Positions 8,981-61,345 of a stretch of 64,000 nucleotides of DNA are shown one piece after another. The notes under the pieces were generated by a model. That model saw only the letters and a list, made by a program, of their open reading frames with translations. It was not told the origin of the DNA and made no database searches. A program made the translations under genes and the position numbers. The stretch lies in IMG/VR virus record IMGVR_UViG_3300046408_000009, positions 1-64,000 of that record; one strand, written 5' to 3'. The DNA comes from a virus (lineage: Duplodnaviria > Caudoviricetes). The stretch's first letter is position 1. Every line of letters starts with the position of its first letter.

Positions 8981-10740
8981 TAGACCGGTTCCGCCGTAAC
9001 GGTGCCAAAGGTGGCGTTCACGAGGTCAATACGCAAGTAGTTTTGATTTTGCACGAGTATCGAGAGTGACGATGTATAGCCTGACGCCGCTGCTGCAAAA
9101 ACAGTGTTAGTCGGGGCTGAGGTGATGTTGTAGAACTGCTTAGTCAACTTCGCGGTGGCGACTCCCGTCGACGTAATCGGGATCAATAGCCATAGGTCCT
9201 GTCCCGTGGTGTTCTGGTACACACCCCCCGACGTGAGAGTGATTGTCGCTGGGTTCGCGTTGACGCCGCGACTGATACCAGACGGCGTGATGTTGAACGC
9301 ACTCTGCGAGAGAACGCCAGGGATCGTGATGTTCCCCGTCAAATACGCCAACTGGGTTGCGTAGTTGAGACTGGGAGACTGCCAACTGCCCAACAAGTAG
9401 ATGATGCCGTTGCCGTTGATGGACGTGGACGCATTGGAGACGACGAACGAAGTGTGGTTCGTCGCTGCGCCACCGTCGATCTCGCCGTTGATATTCCACT
9501 CGACGTTGATCCACTTGGAGAAGCCCTTCATGCGGAAGAGTGCGCCCGTGTTGGTTGCACCGTTGTTCGCGTTGACGATCATGCGCCAGAACACACCAAT
9601 GTGCTGGACCTGTCCCGCTCCACCAGACGTTCCCAGTCCAATCTCATCAACGATGCCGTCCTGGTTGGCGTTGAGGTCAAGGAACAACGCGTGCACGGCC
9701 CAGTACGCAAAGGAGGGGTAGCCGGTTGACTTGACGGCGAAGTCCATGTTGACGGTGTTGTTGTACAACTGGACGCCATCCATCGTGACGCGCTCGCACC
9801 AGCCGACCTGGTTGTAGAAATACATGCCGATACCCGCCGACGCACTGAAACCACCAATCGAGATATCTTGAAAGAGAACCTGACTGACGTCGCTCCACGA
9901 CAACCCGACTGCCGTGCCCGACGCACCGGAGCCGTCGATGCTGAACCCACCCCAGTAGGGCGAACCGGTGCAGAACGCTGCGGCGGCAGTGACGGTGAGG
10001 GAACTCGCCAGCGTCGAACCGGTGTAGTGAATGATGGAGACCTTGGACCCGTGCCCCCGTACCGCGTAGGGCAACGTGCCAGAGAACGATCCGGAGTTGG
10101 GTCCGACCATCGACGCCGGGTTGAGGTTCGAAAGTGTGATGGGCGCTGCGGGCAAAAGCAGGATGCCTGAACCGTTGGCAACCATTGCCGTGAGCGCGTT
10201 GGTGTACGCAGTCTGGTCGGCAGATGAACTACCCACACCTACTGCACCACCCGTGGCGTAGGTGGGGTTGGTCATATCGTAAACGCCTAGGACAGCAGAG
10301 AATCCTCCACCACCTAAAGCAGCGACAACGTTGTGCACGAATGCGGTGGTCGCAATTTTGAGTGTGCTGTCACTCGTCGTCGCAGTCGGGGCAGTCGGGG
10401 TACCGCTGAACACGGGGGATGCGAGAGGCGCGTAACTGGTGTCAACGTCACTACCGCCGCCACCCGCCGCAATCGCGGCGACGACGAACGCTGTAGTTGC
10501 AATCCTGGTGGAGTTATCACTAGTCGATGGGGTGGGTGCTGTGGGGGTACCAACAAATGCTGGTGAGTTGAGTGATGCCAGTATGGGGGCACTCGCCGTA
10601 CCGATGACTGACTCGATAGCGTGAATAGCATCATTGGCATTGGCGTGTTGACTTGCGTGGTCTAGTCCCGTAGGGTCCATCGTGACAGCATCAGTAGGGT
10701 CCGTAAAAGTGTCAATACTTGTATTGAAATTAGTTGGCAT
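8980..10740 (-). CDS. Tail fibre/tailspike with probable beta-helix (depolymerase-like) domain
   Basis: Two copies of the fibre repeat SPxFxGTPTAPTxxxxDxxxxIATTAFV, followed by a Gly/Asn/Ser-rich beta-helix-like region. Confidence 0.8.
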   Translation of the reverse strand: MPTNFNTSIDTFTDPTDAVTMDPTGLDHASQHANANDAIHAIESVIGTASAPILASLNSPAFVGTPTAPTPSTSDNSTRIATTAFVVAAIAAGGGGSDVDTSYAPLASPVFSGTPTAPTATTSDSTLKIATTAFVHNVVAALGGGGFSAVLGVYDMTNPTYATGGAVGVGSSSADQTAYTNALTAMVANGSGILLLPAAPITLSNLNPASMVGPNSGSFSGTLPYAVRGHGSKVSIIHYTGSTLASSLTVTAAAAFCTGSPYWGGFSIDGSGASGTAVGLSWSDVSQVLFQDISIGGFSASAGIGMYFYNQVGWCERVTMDGVQLYNNTVNMDFAVKSTGYPSFAYWAVHALFLDLNANQDGIVDEIGLGTSGGAGQVQHIGVFWRMIVNANNGATNTGALFRMKGFSKWINVEWNINGEIDGGAATNHTSFVVSNASTSINGNGIIYLLGSWQSPSLNYATQLAYLTGNITIPGVLSQSAFNITPSGISRGVNANPATITLTSGGVYQNTTGQDLWLLIPITSTGVATAKLTKQFYNITSAPTNTVFAAAASGYTSSLSILVQNQNYLRIDLVNATFGTVTAEPV

Positions 10741-47757: not shown

Positions 47758-48047
47758 GGTAGCCCGTACTGCGCACGTTCCGCACGGTGTGCAGGGTTGG
47801 CAAGTCTCTGAGCCATCCGGACACGATTTTGATCAATACAACTCTGTGCAGCGGCAACAGCCTCCTCACGAGTCACATAAGCAACCATTTTGATTTGCTT
47901 CGTCCACCCATCACCGTGAATTCCCCCGGTCGAAAACTTGATGATTGGTACATAGGGGAACTTCGGGTTTCGTCCGCGTTTAGCGGCAGTCGCTACGCCA
48001 AAATCAAACCCAGCAACCACCCGTTCAATGTCTTGTGTCAGTGTCAT
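47742..48047 (-). CDS. Hypothetical protein (leaderless)
   Basis: ATG 6 nt after the TATGAT box. Confidence 0.75.
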   Translation of the reverse strand: MTLTQDIERVVAGFDFGVATAAKRGRNPKFPYVPIIKFSTGGIHGDGWTKQIKMVAYVTREEAVAAAQSCIDQNRVRMAQRLANPAHRAERAQYGLPWEIV

Positions 48048-48053
48048 ATAAAT

Positions 48054-48082
48054 ATCATAACATCCTTTTTGCAAATTTGCAA
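48054..48082 (-). promoter_or_regulatory. Promoter TTGCAA-17-TATGAT with tandem TTTGCAAA
   Basis: Exact 17-nt spacer; leaderless ATG 6 nt downstream. Confidence 0.85.
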
Positions 48083-48097
48083 ATTTCCAAACAAAAA

Positions 48098-48119
48098 TCC
48101 GGGCCATTTCTGGCCCGGA
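48098..48119 (-). terminator. Intrinsic terminator
   Basis: TCCGGGCCA-GAAA-TGGCCCGGA hairpin followed by TTTTTGTTT on the minus strand. Confidence 0.85.
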
Positions 48120-48161
48120 CTTCTGTGTCAATGGGTTTCCGCAAGCGTCTAAATACTAACC

Positions 48162-48542
48162 CTACGCCGTGGCGGGTGGCGTCTGCGTCTGTGCAGCAGC
48201 GGACGCAGCCGCGTTGGTGGTCGGTGCCTGTGGAGTCAACTTCAACTGCGTAGGTGCGCTCGCGCCCACGTCGAATGTTTCGGTGCCGCTCCACGGCGTA
48301 CCGCCTACGGTGAACTTCGCCGTCACTACAACCGCCGCGTCCAAGGGACCGTTCGCCGTCACGGTGATGCCGGAGTTGTCCGCGTTGGGGGTAGCCGTCA
48401 ACGACGCCGGGTCCGATGACGTGACGGTGAGACTGCCCGCGTCGACGGTCGGTGACGTGGCCGGGTTGCCGAATTCATCTTCGAACACGAAGAGAACATC
48501 GGAACTCTGATTGTCCTGCAAGCCAAATGGAACAGTGCTCAT
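48162..48542 (-). CDS. Ig-like beta-sandwich protein
   Basis: FEDEFGNP...LTVTSSDPA.LTATP...VVVTA pattern. Confidence 0.75.
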   Translation of the reverse strand: MSTVPFGLQDNQSSDVLFVFEDEFGNPATSPTVDAGSLTVTSSDPASLTATPNADNSGITVTANGPLDAAVVVTAKFTVGGTPWSGTETFDVGASAPTQLKLTPQAPTTNAAASAAAQTQTPPATA

Positions 48543-52019: not shown

Positions 52020-52444
52020 CAGTCCATCCTCGATCCCGCGTGAGCATTGAGACCATTCTGACGCAGCACCTCCGCGAACGCGCCGCACGCGGCTTCCTTC
52101 AATTGCATCGACTGTCCGAATTCAGCGTCACGAGATTCAGAGACGCAGTCATTACCCCACAACTGCCAACCACCGCCGTACGCGCTAGAGCCGATGCCCC
52201 CGCGACCGTACTTGCCGGGTTGTTTCTTGAGCCACGCCACGAACGCACCGCGAGCGGGCTTGATGGTGACCCACGCGAACCCGCAGGGACCGCCAGAGCA
52301 GTACCATTGTTCACCGGTTGATTCGTCACGAACGACCATCGCACGCAAGCGCGACTTCTCGTCCTCGTACGCGGCCTGAGCCGCCTTCTGCGCCGCCTGG
52401 TAAACCTCAGCGGGGCTTAATTTCTTGGTTTGGGTGTCTGTCAT
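52019..52444 (-). CDS. Hypothetical phage protein (leaderless)
   Basis: GPCGFAWVTIKPARGAFVAWLKK...GGGWQLW...QSM.LKEAAC.AFAEVL conserved-looking pattern. Confidence 0.8.
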   Translation of the reverse strand: MTDTQTKKLSPAEVYQAAQKAAQAAYEDEKSRLRAMVVRDESTGEQWYCSGGPCGFAWVTIKPARGAFVAWLKKQPGKYGRGGIGSSAYGGGWQLWGNDCVSESRDAEFGQSMQLKEAACGAFAEVLRQNGLNAHAGSRMD

Positions 52445-52451
52445 ATGAATA

Positions 52452-52516
52452 ACTATAGTGCCAAATTTGCAAATTTGCAAAATATTTTTGCAAATTTGCA
52501 AAAAATAAACTACGAT
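52452..52516. promoter_or_regulatory. Back-to-back divergent promoters with four (T)TTGCAAA boxes
   Basis: Minus: TTGCAA(52480-52475)-17-TATAGT; plus: TTGCAA(52488-52493)-17-TACGAT; both give leaderless starts. Confidence 0.9.
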
Positions 52517-52522
52517 ATTTAT

Positions 52523-52843
52523 ATGACAGAAACCATCAATAACCAATCCATTCAAACCACTGAAAGGATCACTAGTTTCACCACGGTCAGCGGTTTGACC
52601 TTCAGCATTGAGGGGAAGAAATTCGTCACCCGTAAGCCCAAGGGTTTTCGTGTCGGCTTCAGCGAAGAATTAGCCTGCAGTCACCGCGACATCTCTACCT
52701 GTGACCAATGCGCGGGCACCTACGCCAACATCATCGAAGTCTACGGTACACACTACTGGGTCCGCGACTACAGCGAGTGGTTGGAGCAGGTCCGTGAGTT
52801 CGCCCTTCTCGACGCTGAGTACGCGAATGAGGAAACCAATTAA
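52523..52843 (+). CDS. Hypothetical protein (leaderless)
   Basis: ATG 6 nt after TACGAT; CSH...CDQC motif. Confidence 0.75.
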   Translation: MTETINNQSIQTTERITSFTTVSGLTFSIEGKKFVTRKPKGFRVGFSEELACSHRDISTCDQCAGTYANIIEVYGTHYWVRDYSEWLEQVREFALLDAEYANEETN

Positions 52844-53076: not shown

Positions 53077-53267
53077 AATCACTCCCTCTGGATAGAGAAC
53101 GATGCCACTACGATGTGACGGGTTACCCCATTGACTTCGAGAACCGATGTATGCGACGTGCGCGTTGGGTACTTGAATCACCTACCCACGGCAAACATGA
53201 AAATTTTGCACGCAGCACGCCAATCATGGAACGTCATGGGTGGAAGAATCGAGTTGAATTCAAGTGA
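53073..53267 (+). CDS. Hypothetical protein
   Basis: ATGA overlaps on both sides. Confidence 0.6.
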   Translation: MKSLPLDRERCHYDVTGYPIDFENRCMRRARWVLESPTHGKHENFARSTPIMERHGWKNRVEFK

Positions 53268-53890
53268 TGAAAACACTCGAACTATTCTCCGGCACTGAAT
53301 CATTCTCCAACGCCGCCCGCGAGCGCGGACACCAAACATTCACATCGGACTTCGATCCACAATTCGATAGTGACTACACCGTCGACATCATGCAACTCGA
53401 TACCGCACGTCTCCCGTTCCGACCCGATGTGTTGTGGGCGAGTCCACCATGTGAGACATTCAGCGTTGCCAGCCTTGGTCGATATTGGTGGAAGGACGAA
53501 GATGGTCTCCACCCTAGGAATGACATCGCTCGCGCGGGTATCGCCCGCGTCGAGAGAACGTTAGAGATCATCGATGAGTTACAACCAAAAGTCTGGATTA
53601 TCGAGAACCCCCGTGGGGCACTGCGCAAGATGAAATTCATGCAGGACTTTGCACGATACACCGTGACCTATTGCCAATATGGTGACGTCCGGATGAAGCC
53701 CACGGACCTGTGGTCGAATGTTGATGATCTCGTATTCAAACCGATTTGCAAAAACGGGGCACCGTGTCATATCGCTGCACCTCGCGGAAGTCAGACTGGA
53801 ACGCAGGGACCTAAAAGTTACCTTGAGAAGTCTCGTGTCCCACATCAACTGTGTGTGTGTGTGGTCCAACAATTCGAGGAAAGGATGTGA
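53264..53890 (+). CDS. Short DNA (cytosine-5)-methyltransferase-like protein
   Basis: LELFSG (I), WASPPCETFS (IV), IIENP (VI), QYG..RMKPT (VIII). Confidence 0.85.
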   Translation: MMKTLELFSGTESFSNAARERGHQTFTSDFDPQFDSDYTVDIMQLDTARLPFRPDVLWASPPCETFSVASLGRYWWKDEDGLHPRNDIARAGIARVERTLEIIDELQPKVWIIENPRGALRKMKFMQDFARYTVTYCQYGDVRMKPTDLWSNVDDLVFKPICKNGAPCHIAAPRGSQTGTQGPKSYLEKSRVPHQLCVCVVQQFEERM

Positions 53891-54078
53891 TGGACGAGTT
53901 CACTGAACGCCACCTCGCCCGCTGGATCGACGCCAGCGTGTACGAGGATGATCGGGCGCAATTCCACGCGTACGCGACCCGATGCATTAACGACGATCCG
54001 ACGTACGACTGGAACTACCCCAGCCTGTACCGATCATTTCTACTTCAACAAAAAACCAACAAGAAAGAGACCACATGA
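53890..54078 (+). CDS. Hypothetical protein
   Basis: TGATG overlap; 62 aa. Confidence 0.65.
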   Translation: MDEFTERHLARWIDASVYEDDRAQFHAYATRCINDDPTYDWNYPSLYRSFLLQQKTNKKETT

Positions 54079-54488
54079 CTGAAAGAATTGCAACGTCCAC
54101 TCGACACCGTACGGCGAGAATCATCGCCGCCGCGATTGTGATTGGCATCTTCATCGCCATCGTTTCATCCGTGAGTTCTCACGGCGGTGGAGGCCCCTAC
54201 AGCGCCCAGGTGACGAGCGTGACGCCGCTGCAGGGTCCCGGTAACTACGTGCGCGTCGACTACACCGTGACCAACGCGGGGAGTGCGTCGGGGTCACCGT
54301 CGTGCCAGATCGACATCCAACTCAACGACGTGAACGGCAACCCCATGGCCAGTGGATCGGACGCGATGTCGGGGACCAACACCGTCCCGGCCCACGGCTC
54401 GCAGGCGTTCTACGCCGATATCGTGGTGACGAATAACGACGCGTTCTACGTGACTAACCCGTCGATGGTGACTATCAGCGGGTGCTGA
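54075..54488 (+). CDS. Membrane-anchored protein with extracytoplasmic Ig-like domain
   Basis: TM segment IIAAAIVIGIFIAIVSSV, then beta-rich YTVTNAG...VPAHGSQAFY. Confidence 0.8.
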   Translation: MTERIATSTRHRTARIIAAAIVIGIFIAIVSSVSSHGGGGPYSAQVTSVTPLQGPGNYVRVDYTVTNAGSASGSPSCQIDIQLNDVNGNPMASGSDAMSGTNTVPAHGSQAFYADIVVTNNDAFYVTNPSMVTISGC

Positions 54489-54495
54489 CGGCAAA

Positions 54496-54523
54496 GAACC
54501 CCTGACCGCTGAGTCAGGGGTTC
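54496..54523. terminator. Bidirectional terminator hairpin
   Basis: GAACCCCTGAC-CGCTGA-GTCAGGGGTTC, 11-bp perfect stem between convergent units. Confidence 0.85.
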
Positions 54524-54553
54524 TCCGCCAGCGTTTAGGCATCGCCACTCCAG

Positions 54554-54656
54554 AAGCCTTCAGCGATCAATTAGGAAGAACTGCAACACCATCCAAAGGC
54601 TGATCCCAGAGTGTTCCTACACCCGTCGCAGTTGTCAATTGATCGTTTTCCGGCTT
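54554..54656 (-). ncRNA. Putative structured small RNA of unknown class
   Basis: Own promoter TTGCAT-17-TATGAT (54691-54663) with predicted +1 at 54656; nested helices of 5, 9 and 9 bp capped by two hairpins; no plausible ORF; downstream terminator. Confidence 0.75.
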
Positions 54657-54719
54657 GCAGAAATCATAGTTGATGGTTACTGCAAATGCAAATCTAACTT
54701 ACGGGATCGTCGGGTGGGT

Positions 54720-54962
54720 TCATGATCGAAACTTGTGGTCGTAGACGTTGTTGGCTGTTCCGGGGGTGTGCCAGATACTCTCTCGTACGTCATCACACCC
54801 ACGGTATGTACATTTTGCGTCCGGGTCCTCAACGGCCAGCGGTGCATTGATAATTTGCAGAATAGCGTCACGTTCATTCGCCGTCAACACATTAGAAAAT
54901 TTCGAATTCTCGATCACTGCACGAATGGCGTCGAGTTTAGAAATTTGTTCGTTGTCGTTCAT
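54720..54962 (-). CDS. Hypothetical protein
   Basis: 80 aa; ATGA overlap. Confidence 0.7.
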   Translation of the reverse strand: MNDNEQISKLDAIRAVIENSKFSNVLTANERDAILQIINAPLAVEDPDAKCTYRGCDDVRESIWHTPGTANNVYDHKFRS

Positions 54963-55234
54963 AGTGGCTTACCGCACGCTGGGCAGAAATTATACCCGTC
55001 GCTCTTCCATATTTTGTGCGATGCACTGTTTTGGTACCAACACTTCAACAGATCACGAGTCATTACGACGTCCTCAATTCGTTGCATAAACATCTGCGCA
55101 TCGTCGGGTGTTGAAAATCCTCGAACCGTTAGGGTGACGTTTGCGCAAAATCCGTCGAGACGTTCATCAACCGCGTAGGGGACAATACTTTCGTCACGCG
55201 GGTTGGCGCGTCCGAATTCGTCCCATTCCATCAT
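54959..55234 (-). CDS. Hypothetical protein with C-terminal Zn ribbon
   Basis: KCW...YNFCPACGKPL. Confidence 0.75.
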   Translation of the reverse strand: MMEWDEFGRANPRDESIVPYAVDERLDGFCANVTLTVRGFSTPDDAQMFMQRIEDVVMTRDLLKCWYQNSASHKIWKSDGYNFCPACGKPL

Positions 55235-55875
55235 GGATTCGCTTTCTTAAACTGTTGCGCGAACTTCTGGCTACAGAGACTTCGAAGATCGGCGTCGGTG
55301 TGTACAGAATCTACAAACGGCGCGAACTCTTTTATGCGATGCACCATGCTTTTATGTTCAACGGACAGTGCCGGTTTTCTCCCCGGTCGCTTCCAGAACG
55401 AATCAATTTTGTTAGGAACTTCTTCAAAGGTTTTGTATAGTTTAGGTGGTGGATTAAACACTCCCCATAGTGCCGTCTTTTTAGTCCAGGGACTTCCGTA
55501 TTCATAGGGTTGATATGTCCAATCAGGCTTCCCTAGGAAATCACGCAGACGCCCCGTGGCCGGGTTTTCGATCACCCACCAGACGGGTGACGATGCGTCG
55601 ATAATTCGTAGACACTCATTGACCAATGCCATTCCATTTTCAGGACTACGCGCCTTCCCGCCTTGACGAGCGGTGGAAAACTCTGTACAGACCGGATTGG
55701 CAATAATTCCGTGAACCTCCTGAGGAGGGCAATAGTTTTCAACTCCTATATCTTTCCCGATGCGAATGACGTGATAATCAGGATCAACTTGGTAAGGCCA
55801 CGAATCGCTGCCCGTGTCCGCGCATAGATGAAGAATTGTTTTCAATTTCGTCTTTCGTCTTTCGTCTCTGGTCAT
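55231..55875 (-). CDS. Divergent DNA cytosine methyltransferase-like protein
   Basis: TILHLCADTGS (degenerate motif I), IANPVCTEFS (IV), WVIENP (VI), YGSPWTKKTALWG (VIII). Confidence 0.75.
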   Translation of the reverse strand: MTRDERRKTKLKTILHLCADTGSDSWPYQVDPDYHVIRIGKDIGVENYCPPQEVHGIIANPVCTEFSTARQGGKARSPENGMALVNECLRIIDASSPVWWVIENPATGRLRDFLGKPDWTYQPYEYGSPWTKKTALWGVFNPPPKLYKTFEEVPNKIDSFWKRPGRKPALSVEHKSMVHRIKEFAPFVDSVHTDADLRSLCSQKFAQQFKKANP

Positions 55876-56189
55876 GGCTTCAACGTCATCACGCAATTGA
55901 TCACGTCGCCCGTGATTTTCCGGTCCTCGTGTTCGATCTCCAACGCGATGCGTGGCAGAGAACCGACCACCAAATTGTCGGCTCGCCCGCGCAACAGACT
56001 GTACGAAACATTCTCCTCGCGCACAAGTTCGATCTTCACTCGCGGCCAAACGCCGCGCCGTACCTTGTCCGCGAGTTCTCGCAGAGTGACGATTGCGCTA
56101 TCCACATCACTGTCGTTCCCCGTGAGGGGACGGGGTCCGAGTTCAGAGATGGCTAAGTAGATGTCGGTAAGGATTTCGTCTTTCGTCAT
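55872..56189 (-). CDS. Hypothetical protein (leaderless)
   Basis: ATG 6 nt after TACACT (56201-56196); TTGCAA and CTGCAAA boxes upstream. Confidence 0.75.
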   Translation of the reverse strand: MTKDEILTDIYLAISELGPRPLTGNDSDVDSAIVTLRELADKVRRGVWPRVKIELVREENVSYSLLRGRADNLVVGSLPRIALEIEHEDRKITGDVINCVMTLKP

Positions 56190-56228
56190 GGTTCGAGTGT
56201 AGCAGGTTTTTGCAGATTGCAAATACAA

Positions 56229-56273
56229 AACCCTCACCAACTTTTGAGCCAGAGGCTCAGGTCGATGAGGGTT
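56229..56273 (-). terminator. Intrinsic terminator after the HNH gene
   Basis: 13-bp outer stem AACCCTCATCGAC/GTTGGTGAGGGTT with inner TGAGCC/GGCTCA, followed by TTGTATTT. Confidence 0.7.
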
Positions 56274-56309
56274 CTGCCTTATCAGCGTAGCACCTGGGAA
56301 CTTTCGCAT

Positions 56310-56630
56310 TTACGGACGCGGTTTACGGACCCGAATCTTCTCGCCGTTACGCGGAGTGGGGACGGAATGTCCCAGCGCGATGGCCTCGATGCGCCGCGCG
56401 AGCCACGTCGAATTCTGCGCCCACTCGCGAGCGTTCTGGTGGCCCTTGCGTGAGTTGCAGGGGTAGCACGCCGCCACGAGATTATGCAGCGCCTGCGTGC
56501 CGCCGTGCTTGACCGCGAGCACGTGATCAACGGTGGACGTCTCGCGCGTGATCGATACGCCGCACCAGTAGCAGCGCCCACCGCTGAGTTGAAATATTTG
56601 CAACTTGCGAGACCGCTTCACGTAGGACAT
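56310..56630 (-). CDS. HNH endonuclease
   Basis: GRCYWCG...TVDHVL...GG...NLVAACYPCNSRKG. Confidence 0.9.
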   Translation of the reverse strand: MSYVKRSRKLQIFQLSGGRCYWCGVSITRETSTVDHVLAVKHGGTQALHNLVAACYPCNSRKGHQNAREWAQNSTWLARRIEAIALGHSVPTPRNGEKIRVRKPRP

Positions 56631-56709
56631 CGATTGAGCATATCCGGGGAGGTCCGCAGTCCCCACCGCCCATCCCCGTGAAGTGGGGACCGCAGACGCG
56701 CAGAGTGTA

Positions 56710-57954
56710 TCAGTGTTGGGGGTCCGCCGCTTGTGCAATCCGACCTTCGATAATTGGGTAGTAGTCCTCAGTGATCTCACAGCCCACCCACTCGAATCCT
56801 TCGAGGATCGCTGCCGCCGCCGTCGTGCCGGAACCCAAGAATGGATCGAGCACTTTGCCACCCGGTGGCGTCACGAGGTTGATGAGGTAGCGCATTAGTG
56901 CGAGCGGCTTGACGGTGGGGTGGTGGTTCTTGTCCTCGACTCCAGCACTTCGTTCGGACTTGCTGGCTTTAGCGCAATAGAAGAATCGAGCAGCGGAACC
57001 ATCGTCGTTGTACTCAGTACCCGTTGCTGTCATCCCCCAGCCTTTTCCATTTGCACCACTGCGCGGTTTACCTTTACGTGACGGTTTTACTGATGGGAAT
57101 GCGTTGAGCACTTCGTCGCTACCGTCGTGGATGATGTTGGCGGGCCATCGGCCCTCCGGCAGTTCATAGCGGGTGGCAGCGCCCTTACTGTAAACTCCGT
57201 TTGCGCCAATGGTTCCAACGGTGTGTGGGTTCTTTGCATAAATCGAATCATCCTTGGATTCAATCAGTACGCGTGAGGCGTCAATGTTCAGTGCCCCCGT
57301 ACCATACTCCAAAACGTTCTTCACCACCGTCCCGACGAGGGGCTTCCGAGCGACGACGATTGGTTCGTGAGCGGGCTTGAGCGCCGTACCCCAGCCTTGC
57401 CATTTTTGTGCGTCGGGTGTCGATTCGCCCTTGCGAGTGAGTTGGTTGTTTGTGTTGTTGTACCCTCCGGCACCATCTGGGTTCATGAACCCAACACCGC
57501 TCGCAGGTTTCGATGTGAACTCAACACCAGCCGACTTGTCGATGGCCTTGGATACGTCCATAGACTTCGGGAACCCCGAGCCATACAGCCACATGATCTG
57601 ATCGCGTATCTCAAACCCCGCATCCTCGATTGAACTGGCGATTCGGTGATAGGTTCGCGATCCACCAAACGCGAGCAAGTGACCACCCGGCTTCAAGACG
57701 CGCAGGGCTTCGACCCAGAGAGCGACATTATAGGCGATTCCCGAATTGTCCCAGGATTTTCCCATAAAGCCGAGTTCGTAGGGTGGATCGGTGACGATGG
57801 AATCGACACTGTTAGCGTCGAGCGTCTTTAGTAGAACGAGGCAGTCACCCCGGAGTAGTCCTACTTGCAAATGTTGGTCCGGCGGTCCCACCCAAAAATC
57901 ATCTTCGTCGTACTCGTCAACATCGATCAAAACTGCGGGTTCGTCGTTCGTCAT
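56710..57954 (-). CDS. DNA N6-adenine/N4-cytosine methyltransferase (beta class)
   Basis: VTDPPY catalytic motif before the VLDPFLGSGTT SAM-binding motif; LKPAHEPI, HPTVKP. Confidence 0.95.
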   Translation of the reverse strand: MTNDEPAVLIDVDEYDEDDFWVGPPDQHLQVGLLRGDCLVLLKTLDANSVDSIVTDPPYELGFMGKSWDNSGIAYNVALWVEALRVLKPGGHLLAFGGSRTYHRIASSIEDAGFEIRDQIMWLYGSGFPKSMDVSKAIDKSAGVEFTSKPASGVGFMNPDGAGGYNNTNNQLTRKGESTPDAQKWQGWGTALKPAHEPIVVARKPLVGTVVKNVLEYGTGALNIDASRVLIESKDDSIYAKNPHTVGTIGANGVYSKGAATRYELPEGRWPANIIHDGSDEVLNAFPSVKPSRKGKPRSGANGKGWGMTATGTEYNDDGSAARFFYCAKASKSERSAGVEDKNHHPTVKPLALMRYLINLVTPPGGKVLDPFLGSGTTAAAAILEGFEWVGCEITEDYYPIIEGRIAQAADPQH

Positions 57955-58200: not shown

Positions 58201-58308
58201 GCAGATTGACCGGGTGGGATTCGAACCCACGTGACCCTCGCCGTCGCTCGGACCATCACCTACGTTGGGTGTCCCTTTTTGACCAGACTCCGGGCACCGA
58301 CAACCTGC
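58201..58308 (-). ncRNA. tRNA-like RNA with extended acceptor stem and non-canonical anticodon loop
   Basis: T-arm GTGGG-TTCGAAT-CCCAC; D-arm-like CCC..TGGTC..GGG; 12-bp bulged terminal stem; long variable region; no CCA. Confidence 0.65.
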
Positions 58309-60519: not shown

Positions 60520-61345
60520 GCCACCCTACAGCACAGCGCGTTGTCTACTTTCGAAAATCGGCGTTATCACCATCGAACGATTTTCGTTTTCCCTGATGAG
60601 AGGCTATGAAAACACGCATAAATCCTCATTTTCTATCAGCCCATAATATACGTTATGTAAAGTTGATGTGGAAAAAGCCAAGTTGATGAGGTTTTATGCA
60701 GAAAGTTTTTGCAGAAAAGGCTTGCCCCCCACTGATCCCAGCGACTAGGTTGTTGGTGGCGGAGAAATCGATCTGCAGGTCGAAATCCCATCACTGTGAA
60801 ACCAGTTCTGCGCGAGCAGGAAACTTCCGATCTTGCCCAGCGGTGGGTTGTCGTAGGTGGTTATACCATCGAGGCACCATCGACTGGGCATTTTCGTTTT
60901 TCGGGTCGACTCGAAAATTGCAAATCTCAGAACCGAAAATTGCAGAATTTCGGCTAAACGAAAAATTCGGTACGCGGGTGGCATGGTTGGATGGGCGGAT
61001 GGTCTCAGGGGGCTTCCTCAAAACACTTCTATTTTAAACGAATTTCCCCCTCATCAGGGATTACAGACAGTTTCCGGGGTTTGCTCCTATTGTTACTCCT
61101 AGTTTGCATTTCGTGCATGCCTACTCCCTATACCCCTTACTCACTCTCACGTTTAGTATTTAGCCTTAAATACTGTCCTAACTGTCTAAGTGTCATATAA
61201 TACCTGATAAGGAGCAACCCAACCGACTCCAAAATCGTCTACAAACTGTATTCGACTGTCCTACCCTTTTCGGTTGGTTCGCCCCCAAAAAGCGAAAATC
61301 CCGTCCGCTGACAGATGCGAACGGGACCTTCACTAACGAATCATG
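60520..61345. other. Long AT-richer non-coding region, putative replication origin / recombination region
   Basis: No credible ORF; direct repeats CGAAAATTGCA (60912, 60934), inverted repeat TCCCTGATGAG (60590/61050), AT-rich hairpin 61155-61174, strand-skewed tract. Confidence 0.5.
60636..60663 (+). other. dif: dif-like XerC/XerD recombination site
   Basis: TCAGCCCATAA-TATACG-TTATGTAAAGT in the 11-6-11 layout; right arm 1 nt from B. subtilis dif (TTATGTAAACT) and 2 nt from E. coli dif (TTATGTTAAAT). Confidence 0.75.

What the first reader, a model, noticed from the sequence alone, without database searches (positions are those of the whole stretch)
54496..54691. Stand-alone structured small RNA with its own promoter and terminator
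Seen in sequence: on the minus strand a consensus phage promoter (TTGCAT-17-TATGAT) puts +1 at 54656 with the same 6-nt gap used by the leaderless genes, and that base is the first base of a terminal helix. The 103 nt fold by eye into AAGCC/GGCUU, then CGAUCAAUU/AAUUGAUCG (9 bp perfect), then AACUGCGAC/GUUGCAGUU (9 bp), closed by a three-way junction with GGGUGU-AGGA-ACACUC and AUCAGCC-UUU-GGAUGGU hairpins. Internal loops are GGAAAA/CUGAA and GAC/CUUCCU. The transcript runs into the bidirectional terminator at 54496-54523 and holds no credible ORF. I do not recognise it as tRNA, tmRNA, SRP RNA or a riboswitch. Inference: a dedicated phage ncRNA, for example a protein decoy (RNAP/6S-like or anti-defence sponge) or an SD-pairing regulator through the CUUCCU loop.
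Basis: partly seen in the sequence, partly recalled or inferred. Interest (0 to 1): 0.82.

Follow-up and report, generated by a model that had tools for sequence, protein, structure and literature searches.

The report
Pseudoknotted small RNA gene in actinophage
A soil phage of actinobacteria carries a real, separately transcribed gene for a folded RNA of about 165 bases; a sister phage keeps the same fold through compensating mutations, the RNA matches no catalogued family, and its function is unknown.

Summary
On the minus strand, a promoter of the phage's own recurrent type (TTGCAT-17-TATGAT) puts +1 at 54656. A 103-nt trunk with a three-way junction follows (54656-54554), then a strong terminator hairpin (54529-54490). 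No credible ORF is present.

Folding energy alone is unremarkable, about -2 sd in a genome-wide scan. The decisive evidence is a homologue I found in a 16.7-kb contig of a sister phage (PolA 81% identical). It has the same promoter layout and the same +1 on AAGCC. All 28 nested pairs are kept, five of them changed on both sides. A terminator follows.

The P4 apical loop is complementary to the 3' strand of the P2/P3 internal loop: AGGA/UCCU here, UCUCA/UGAGA in the sister. Four of these five pairs changed on both sides, which occurred in 0 of 2000 shuffles.

So the "CUUCCU anti-SD loop" is a pseudoknot or kissing partner, not a conserved SD-pairing site. A 13-nt single-stranded tail (CUKGAGUGGYGAU) is conserved.

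There is no Rfam match, no tRNA or tmRNA call, and no further homologues. Only two members are known, no RNA-seq data exist, and the function is untested.

The parts
54663..54691 (-). Promoter: -35 TTGCAT (54691-54686) with a second TTGCAG directly after it, 17-nt spacer, -10 TATGAT (54668-54663). The 6-nt discriminator TTCTGC follows.
   Evidence: It belongs to a phage-wide motif family (15 sites against 3.8 expected). The homologue has TTGCAA-17-TACACT-6 nt-AAGCC.
54554..54656 (-). Structured core of the RNA, nt 1-103 (nt n = 54657-n). P1 is nt 1-5/99-103, P2 is 12-21/84-93, P3 is 24-32/70-78, P4 is 33-38/43-48 and P5 lies within 53-69. It forms a three-way junction.
   Evidence: MFE -35.3, z -3.09. 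RNAalifold consensus on a MAFFT alignment with the homologue gives 28 pairs, 5 of them changed on both sides. The single-sequence CM hit the homologue at E about 4e-8.
54614..54618 (-). P4 apical loop AGGA(A), nt 39-43: 5' half of the covarying pseudoknot or kissing helix.
   Evidence: Pairs with nt 80-84 in both phages. Four of the five pairs changed on both sides. It is the only conserved helix among the unpaired columns, and 0 of 2000 shuffles matched it.
54573..54577 (-). UUCCU, nt 80-84, the 3' strand of the P2/P3 internal loop.
   Evidence: The homologue has GUGAG(A) here, complementary to its own P4 loop UCUCAU.
54601..54608 (-). Conserved junction strand J4/5: UGGGAUCA here, UGGAAUAA in the homologue.
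   Evidence: 6 of 8 positions identical, against about 41% identity at neutral sites.
54541..54553 (-). Conserved single-stranded 3' tail: CUGGAGUGGCGAU here, CUUGAGUGGUGAU in the homologue.
   Evidence: 11 of 13 identical. No hairpin conserved between the two copies is predicted there.
54490..54529 (-). Intrinsic terminator hairpin (17-bp arms), shared with the convergent + strand gene.
   Evidence: The homologue has its own, unrelated terminator at L013:10330-10345 followed by TTTGTTGT.
54720..54962 (-). Upstream 80-aa ORFan, the last gene of the minus-strand operon. No terminator lies between it and the RNA promoter.
   Evidence: No homologue among 5.8 billion proteins.
54075..54488 (+). 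Convergent 137-aa membrane-anchored ORFan that ends 2 nt before the terminator.
   Evidence: No homologue.

Best explanation
This is a stand-alone gene for a structured non-coding RNA of about 165 nt (about 200 nt in the sister phage).

Transcription. A host sigma-A-type phage promoter starts transcription at A54656. That base is the first base of the closing helix P1, so the 5' end is buried in a helix.

Fold. The RNA folds into a trunk of three helices (P1-P2-P3) topped by a three-way junction (P4, P5). The P4 apical loop base-pairs with the 3' strand of the P2/P3 internal loop. A conserved 13-nt single strand and an intrinsic terminator follow.

Most likely mode of action (inferred, not shown). 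It acts in trans as a folded RNA, that is, a scaffold, decoy or aptamer for a protein or small ligand made among the phage's early/accessory genes. The locked core would be the recognised shape and the conserved tail an additional contact. It would not act as an anti-Shine-Dalgarno pairing RNA.

Odds. I put about 0.85 on 'real, selected, structured ncRNA gene', about 0.65 on the loop-to-internal-loop contact being intramolecular, and about 0.35-0.4 on the specific 'shape-recognised scaffold/decoy' mode.
For: Shown:
1. The promoter belongs to a motif family that is strongly over-represented in both phages: 15 against 3.8 expected in the window and 12 against 1.3 in L013. Both RNA copies have a 17-nt spacer and 6 nt between the -10 hexamer and AAGCC.
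2. A single-sequence CM found one full-length hit in a related phage contig (L009:3917-4030, which is L013:10153-10266): 37.5 bits, E about 4e-8. That phage is a true relative, with PolA 81% and SNF2 78% identical at the protein level.
3. On a structure-blind MAFFT alignment, RNAalifold gives P1-P5 with 28 pairs. My 28-pair consensus, identical except for one pair, forms a standard pair in both sequences at every position. In both versions, five pairs changed on both sides and two on one side. Slid controls give 25-51% pairing and 0-1 double changes.
4. The pseudoknot helix has 5 pairs, 4 changed on both sides, and is paired in both sequences. It is the only conserved helix among 61 unpaired columns. 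None of 2000 column shuffles reached 4 or more doubly covarying pairs.
5. Purifying selection is evident. Four-fold degenerate sites of PolA and SNF2 are only 40-42% identical. The RNA is 68% identical overall, 79% in nested pairs, 11/13 in the tail and 6/8 in J4/5.
6. G-U pairs conserved in both copies (columns 30/86 and 57/83) fit RNA on this strand.
7. No ORF is shared between the copies.
8. A terminator follows in both, with unrelated sequences.
9. There is no Rfam family at E<=10 beyond terminator-like noise, and no tRNA or tmRNA call.
Against: - Only two sequences are known, so covariation rests on one comparison. Both consensus structures (mine and RNAalifold's) leave out the two or three distal P2 pairs of the window's MFE that the homologue does not keep in register.
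- No RNA data exist, so the 5' end, the 3' end and expression itself are inferred.
- Folding energy is ordinary for this genome, and the reverse strand folds nearly as well.
- In the window, read-through from the upstream operon would also cover the element, so it could act as part of a 3' UTR.
- A 6-nt hairpin loop pairing with 5-6 nt across a 9-bp helix may be sterically strained. This leaves room for an intermolecular contact.
- Nothing tested here bears on which partner the RNA binds.
Confidence: 0.55

Rival explanations
1. Trans-acting base-pairing sRNA. The folded core would serve only as a stabilising 5' domain. The conserved single-stranded 13-nt tail between core and terminator would be the seed that pairs with a host or phage mRNA.
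For: The layout of structured 5' domain, single strand and terminator is the usual sRNA architecture. The tail is the best-conserved unpaired block: 11/13 identical against 41% at neutral sites.
Against: Duplex scans of both phage genomes with the tail and with J4/5 gave only hits within the noise, and none in homologous genes. The host is unknown, so host targets could not be tested. The conserved unpaired junction nucleotides and a covarying tertiary helix go beyond what a mere stabiliser needs.
Confidence: 0.22
2. Self-associating RNA.
For: The contact columns are only 20% identical yet fully complementary in both phages, while the rest of the RNA is 68-79% identical. This is the pattern described for pRNA kissing sequences, which differ between phi29-family phages (PMC4201828). 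A fully paired 6-nt loop is typical of kissing complexes (inference from general RNA structure knowledge).
Against: Nothing tested here distinguishes an intermolecular from an intramolecular contact. The phage has a terminase-type packaging system (TerL-like gene) and PolA, so a pRNA-like packaging role is not expected. There is no match to the Phage_pRNA model.
Confidence: 0.15
3. Cis-acting element of the upstream operon, such as a 3'-UTR stabiliser or processing site, rather than an independent gene.
For: In the window there is no terminator between the 80-aa gene (stop at 54720) and the element, so operon read-through must include it.
Against: Both copies have their own promoter with +1 exactly on the first base of P1. 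In the sister phage the neighbouring genes differ and the nearest upstream gene ends 316 nt away.
Confidence: 0.08
4. Self-cleaving ribozyme or ligand-binding aptamer of a new class. The architecture (helix, internal loop, helix, three-way junction, with a hairpin loop docking into the internal loop) recalls twister-sister and twister.
For: The unpaired junction and internal-loop nucleotides are conserved (G-AAAA / YUGRA; UGGRAUMA), and there is a long-range loop-to-internal-loop contact.
Against: No hit to any ribozyme or riboswitch model in Rfam at E<=10, even in narrow scans. With two sequences, 'conserved' is weakly defined.
Confidence: 0.07
5. DNA-level element (palindromic protein-binding site or origin-like cruciform), or a small-peptide gene.
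For: The trunk is an imperfect inverted repeat, and both strands fold. A 23-codon TTG frame and a 31-codon frame exist in the window copy.
Against: The conserved G-U pairs would be A-C mismatches on the other strand or in a cruciform. The pseudoknot covariation has no DNA-level rationale. Promoter and terminator give a direction. The frames are not conserved: the homologue has stops and unrelated residues. The element is single copy in the genome.
Confidence: 0.04

Closest known systems
phi29-family packaging RNA (pRNA, Rfam RF00044)
   Same: A phage-encoded RNA of about 120 nt. The 5' and 3' ends pair in a long helix interrupted by bulges and internal loops, there is a central three-way junction, and two complementary loop sequences differ between related phages yet stay complementary (PMC4201828).
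   Different: No match to the covariance model. One partner here is an internal-loop strand, not a second hairpin loop. The host phage is a 75-kb terminase- and PolA-encoding actinophage, not a phi29-like podovirus. Intermolecular pairing is unproven.
Twister-sister and twister self-cleaving ribozymes (RF02681; RF03160, RF02684, RF03154)
   Same: From my recollection of the literature, these have stems separated by an internal loop leading to a multi-helix junction, with a hairpin loop making long-range pairs to the internal loop, and they are common in phage and metagenome DNA.
   Different: No CM hit at E<=10. The docking helix here has 5-6 freely covarying pairs. There is an extra basal helix with a conserved GA-rich internal loop. 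Cleavage is untested.
Immunity antisense RNAs of P1/P7 (c4) and P4 (CI), Rfam RF01695
   Same: From general knowledge: small, stable, phage-encoded structured RNAs with a closing stem and exposed loops, whose specificity sequences covary with their targets between heteroimmune phages.
   Different: No CM hit. Here the complementary partner lies inside the same RNA, and no complementary target was found in either phage genome.
ToxI / phage pseudo-ToxI antitoxin RNA (type III TA)
   Same: A pseudoknotted RNA used by a phage as a decoy against a host defence protein (PMC3594212). This is a precedent for the 'decoy' reading.
   Different: By my recollection, ToxI is made of 36-nt tandem repeats processed by ToxN. 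Here there is a single 103-nt unit in single copy. No similarity was found.

Membership tests
Any Rfam 15 family (4227 models) | Match to the family covariance model at or near its gathering score | tested here: not met
   window; homologue. Only sub-threshold matches (<=18.7 bits against gathering scores of 40-184), and they fall wholly or mainly on the terminator hairpins.
tRNA / tmRNA | Cloverleaf or tmRNA detected by ARAGORN | tested here: not met
   One search finds one tRNA-like gene at 58206-58296 and nothing at 54.5 kb. One search finds none in L013.
phi29 pRNA (RF00044) | Covariance-model match | tested here: not met
   No hit at E<=10.
phi29 pRNA (RF00044) | Encoded by a phi29-like phage whose packaging motor uses the RNA | tested here: not met
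   75-kb genome with direct terminal repeats, a TerL-like terminase about 40% identical to those of Streptomyces and Arthrobacter phages, and family-A DNA polymerase.
phi29 pRNA (RF00044) | 5'/3' helix, three-way junction and two mutually complementary loop sequences that covary | tested here: met
   This shows resemblance in design only; one partner is an internal loop.
phi29 pRNA (RF00044) | Intermolecular self-association into multimers | not testable with these tools
   Needs native gels or AUC of the transcript.
Twister-sister / twister ribozymes | Covariance-model match and the conserved core nucleotides | tested here: not met
   No hit at E<=10.
Twister-sister / twister ribozymes | Site-specific self-cleavage | not testable with these tools
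   Needs an in vitro cleavage assay.
Trans-acting base-pairing sRNA | Conserved single-stranded seed with conserved complementary target sites | tested here: inconclusive
   The seed-like tail is conserved 11/13. No conserved target was found in either phage genome. The host genome is unknown.
Stand-alone phage ncRNA gene (generic) | Own promoter, own terminator, no conserved ORF, structure kept by compensatory change | tested here: met
   Expression itself was not tested, since no RNA runs exist.

The most novel reading that the evidence does not exclude
The fast-evolving but always self-complementary loop pair could be a specificity code for RNA-RNA assembly. On this reading the RNA forms homomeric dimers or rings by kissing between molecules. 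That would make it a natural self-assembling RNA outside the phi29 pRNA family, in a terminase-type tailed actinophage, and therefore with a role other than DNA packaging. Alternatively, the locked fold could be an RNA sponge for a host defence protein or signal.
Probability: 0.12. Interest if true: 0.85.

Novelty: new member of a known kind. Interest (0 to 1): 0.55.

Why it matters
Stand-alone structured RNAs of phages are a small and poorly understood class, and a 2025 review of phage-derived sRNAs (PMC12197685) mentions no actinobacteria, mycobacteria or Streptomyces at all. This locus gives a compact, well-delimited candidate for a new RNA family, with promoter, +1, fold, tertiary contact and terminator all defined.

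Its tertiary contact evolves much faster than the rest of the molecule while staying complementary. That is a clear, cheaply testable structural prediction: mutate and compensate nt 39-43 and 80-84, and ask whether the contact is intra- or intermolecular.

If the contact is intermolecular, this would be a second kind of naturally self-assembling RNA. If the RNA is a decoy, it would add an RNA-based tool to the counter-defence repertoire of actinophages.

Its weight is limited by two things: only two members are known, both from uncultured soil phages, and the function is unknown.

Tried and rejected
**Searches for more homologues (none found)**
- blastn against INPHARED with both copies: no match.
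- Exact and degenerate RNA patterns in IMG/VR: 0 hits.
- The same degenerate pattern in JGI metagenome contigs: 0 hits.
- The same pattern in GTDB genome contigs: one hit, inside a coding region of an alphaproteobacterial MAG. The CM gives no match there, so I rejected it as chance.
- Flanking ORFans P0001 and P0002: no homologues among 5.8 billion proteins, and none in IMG/VR.
- Homologues of the neighbouring MTase-like gene lie in unrelated phages; the CM gives no hits there.
- IMG/VR relative G001, found with the 199-aa protein: no RNA hit.
- IMG/VR scans with the HerA-like 563-aa protein and with the PolA alignment: none encoded a relative. The 199-aa protein alignment in metagenome contigs: none.
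- 90% protein clusters of ten proteins of the sister contig: nothing useful.

**Expression**
- No RNA holder is listed among public runs.
- The two other DNA runs hold identical fragments of the same phage, so they give no variants.

**Other ideas tested**
- A GATC cluster in the RNA (3 sites) is not unusual: the genome has 33 such clusters.
- Complementarity of the conserved unpaired blocks to rRNA, a lead from other findings of this scan, showed nothing beyond noise on one alphaproteobacterial rRNA operon. An actinobacterial rRNA could not be fetched, so this remains inconclusive.
- E. coli genomes blastn: no match, and uninformative for short complementarity.
- K-turn and sarcin-ricin readings of the P1/P2 internal loop were checked by eye and do not fit.
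- An SD-mimic reading of the tail is not conserved (GGCGAU here against GGUGAU in the sister).
- The 84-aa ORF starting in the tail with a GGAG SD (54548-54294) is not conserved; the frame closes after 4 codons in the sister.

Full report
**What the window is.** The window is the first 64 kb of a 75,046-bp IMG/VR virus record with direct terminal repeats. Its terminase, portal and family-A DNA polymerase are only 33-42% identical to those of cultured Streptomyces, Arthrobacter, Gordonia, Corynebacterium, Micrococcus and Microbacterium phages. It is therefore a deep-branching actinophage from soil. Soil-metagenome runs hold it, and a second soil run from another study holds identical fragments.

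**Check of the observation.** All of the following lies on the minus strand.
- The last gene of an operon, an 80-aa ORFan, stops at 54720.
- TTGCAT (54691-54686), a 17-nt spacer, TATGAT (54668-54663) and 6 nt follow, which puts +1 at A54656.
- The regex TTGCAN-N16-18-TANNNT matches 15 times in the window against 3.8 in shuffles.
- The good matches cluster at 47.5-62.5 kb and share an extended TTTGCAAATTTGCAAA box.
- With the downstream 17-bp hairpin (54529-54490), z = -4.44.
- The convergent 137-aa gene ends at 54488, so the hairpin can terminate both directions.

The description is therefore correct. Energy alone does not make the case, however.
- In my scan of 9,994 windows of 105 nt over the whole genome, the core is about 2 sd below the GC-regressed mean and not among the 40 best.
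- The complementary strand also folds (z = -3.59).
- Inverted repeats of 9 nt are common: 113 pairs.

**Finding a homologue.**
- The flanking ORFans have no relatives anywhere.
- blastn against INPHARED found nothing.
- A full HMMER scan with the next gene upstream (91 aa, P0003) gave a few small proteins.
- One of them lies on a 16.7-kb Logan contig (L009; whole contig L013).
- That contig is a genuine sister phage. PolA is 81%, SNF2 78% and a 150-aa protein 86% identical, and many early proteins are 40-65% identical.
- A covariance model built from the window sequence alone hit L009:3917-4030 over its full length: 37.5 bits, E about 4e-8.
- It hit nothing else: not the rest of the own genome, not eight other loci.

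**What the two copies share.**
- The sister copy sits in a 576-bp gene-free gap.
- Its promoter has the same layout: TTGCAA, a second TTGCAA, a 17-nt spacer, TACACT, 6 nt, then AAGCC.
- It belongs to the same promoter family, which occurs 12 times in L013 against 1.3 expected.
- The only terminator-like site in L013:8700-11000 lies just downstream, at 10330-10345 followed by TTTGTTGT.
- Sequence outside the promoter-RNA unit does not align.
- The gene neighbourhood differs. Relative to the sister, the window has about 5.3 kb of extra genes between the homologue of the upstream region (window about 59.99-60.97 kb) and the RNA. These are three DNA methyltransferase-like genes, an HNH gene, a tRNA-like gene and ORFans. 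The downstream genes are unrelated.
- The unit therefore behaves as a self-contained cassette.

**Secondary structure.**
- On a structure-blind MAFFT alignment (A4), RNAalifold predicts P1, P2, P3, P4 and the base of P5. That is 28 pairs, five of them changed on both sides and still paired.
- My own 28-pair version, identical except for one pair, has 100% of cells paired, five double and two single compatible changes.
- Sliding the 3' partners by 1-3 columns gives 25-51% pairing and 0-1 double changes.
- Two G-U pairs are conserved in both copies, which favours RNA on this strand over a DNA palindrome.
- P5 is short in the window and carries a longer hairpin in the sister, a difference of 14 alignment columns.
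- Honest limits: there are only two sequences. Both consensus structures leave out the two or three distal P2 pairs of the window's MFE that the sister does not keep in register; its own MFE restores two of them by bulging one base.

- In both phages, however, it is complementary to the P4 apical loop. In the window, A39-A43 (AGGAA) pairs with U80-U84 (UUCCU). In the sister, C37-U41 (CUCAU) pairs with G91-G95 (GUGAG), and by eye the helix extends to six pairs.
- In the MAFFT alignment these fall in the same columns (39-43 with 94-98). All five pairs are standard in both sequences, and four changed on both sides.
- An exhaustive search of all 61 unpaired ungapped columns for helices of 4 or more pairs kept in both sequences finds only this one.
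- In 2000 column shuffles, a kept helix of 5 or more pairs arises in 11%, but one with 4 or more doubly changed pairs never arises.
- The pairing crosses P3, so within one molecule it is a pseudoknot. It could equally be a kissing contact between molecules.
- These ten columns are 20% identical, whereas nested pairs are 79% identical. The contact's sequence therefore turns over fast while its complementarity is kept.

**Selection and coding.**
- Four-fold degenerate sites of the best-conserved genes are 40-42% identical between the two phages, against a chance level of 26%.
- Against that, the RNA is 68% identical overall, J4/5 (UGGRAUMA) 6/8, and the 13-nt tail after P1 (CUKGAGUGGYGAU) 11/13.
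- No reading frame is shared. The window's 23-codon TTG frame, its 31-codon frame and the 84-codon frame that starts in the tail all have stops or unrelated residues in the sister.

**Comparison with known families.**
- cmscan against all 4227 Rfam models finds nothing in either copy beyond sub-threshold terminator-like noise, both in 2-kb and in narrow scans.
- ARAGORN finds nothing here.
- In design, the closest thing I know is phi29 pRNA. It has a 5'/3' helix, a three-way junction, and complementary loop sequences that differ between related phages (PMC4201828).
- The model does not match, though, and this phage has a terminase and PolA. It is not a member.
- Twister-sister and twister ribozymes share the idea of a hairpin loop docking into an internal loop below a junction, again without any model match.
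- c4/CI immunity RNAs and pseudo-ToxI (PMC3594212) are functional precedents only.
- A recent review of phage sRNAs does not mention actinobacteria, mycobacteria or Streptomyces (PMC12197685).

**How it most likely works.**
- Shown: a cassette of promoter, folded RNA, conserved single strand and terminator, under purifying selection for structure.
- Inferred: transcription by host RNA polymerase. Also inferred: a stable RNA, because its 5' end is base-paired and its 3' end is a terminator hairpin.
- The amount of conserved unpaired sequence and the locked fold suggest recognition of shape by a protein or ligand (scaffold, decoy or aptamer). I rate this about 0.35-0.4.
- Rivals are a base-pairing sRNA using the tail as seed (about 0.22), intermolecular self-assembly (about 0.15), a cis-acting 3'-UTR element (about 0.08), and a ribozyme or aptamer of a new class (about 0.07).
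- The base-pairing rival was tested only against the two phage genomes, without result.
- The anti-SD idea is not supported.
- A test of complementarity to rRNA, prompted by other findings of this scan, gave nothing on a non-host rRNA operon.

**Verdict.**
- This is a real, uncatalogued structured ncRNA gene with a well-supported fold and a covarying tertiary contact.
- Only two members are known, from rare uncultured soil actinophages, and the function is unknown.
- No further homologues turned up in IMG/VR, JGI metagenome contigs, GTDB genomes or INPHARED.

Noticed in passing
whole 75-kb genome (window 1-64000 and beyond): The hexamer CGATCG is completely absent, although GATC occurs 405 times and TGATCA 33 times. 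This looks like avoidance of a PvuI-type restriction site.
   Followed up: no
window 53264-53890 (+), 55231-56049 (-), 56310-56861 (-), 56710-57954 (-): The RNA sits in an accessory island with two C5-methylase-like genes on opposite strands, an N6/N4 methylase and an HNH endonuclease. The homologous interval of the sister contig (L013:9925-10118) is gene-free, so the island is absent there. The 272-aa ORF is probably a 214-aa gene, since its relatives are about 205 aa.
   Followed up: partly
L013:9400-9560 (+): A family promoter (TTGCAA-17-TACGAT) sits 6 nt before an uncalled leaderless ATG. The ATG opens a hydrophobic ORF of about 37 codons in a region annotated as gene-free.
   Followed up: no
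L013:9996-10150 (+): A second 'orphan' family promoter lies about 130 nt upstream of the sister's RNA promoter. It has no leaderless start. A 43-codon ATG frame with a poorly spaced SD runs across the RNA promoter into P2. There is no counterpart in the window.
   Followed up: no
L013:8797-9627 and window about 60579-60971: An 830-bp gene-free stretch in the sister phage is rich in ATTTTCGGTT-like repeats. It is partly homologous to the window's gene-poor stretch that holds the dif-like site. In the window, 7 of the 16 near-matches to the repeat lie at 60.58-61.52 kb, but the total count is at chance level.
   Followed up: partly
genome 72242-72406 (-), window 56177-56326 (-), 48032-48166 (-), 52426-52561 (both strands): These are the most over-stable 105-nt windows in the genome-wide fold scan, at -4 to -6 sd. 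52426-52561 is the AT-rich divergent-promoter palindrome. The others were not examined and may hold further RNA elements or terminators.
   Followed up: no
window 54294-54548 (-): An 84-codon frame starts in the conserved RNA tail behind a GGAG. It runs through the terminator, antisense to the 137-aa gene. It is not conserved in the sister phage, where the frame closes after 4 codons, so it is probably spurious.
   Followed up: yes
L008 (3.2-kb Logan contig): A third, more distant relative of this phage group. It encodes a 128-aa protein 62% identical to the N-terminal part of the 91-aa protein P0003. It carries no copy of the RNA on the fragment available.
   Followed up: partly
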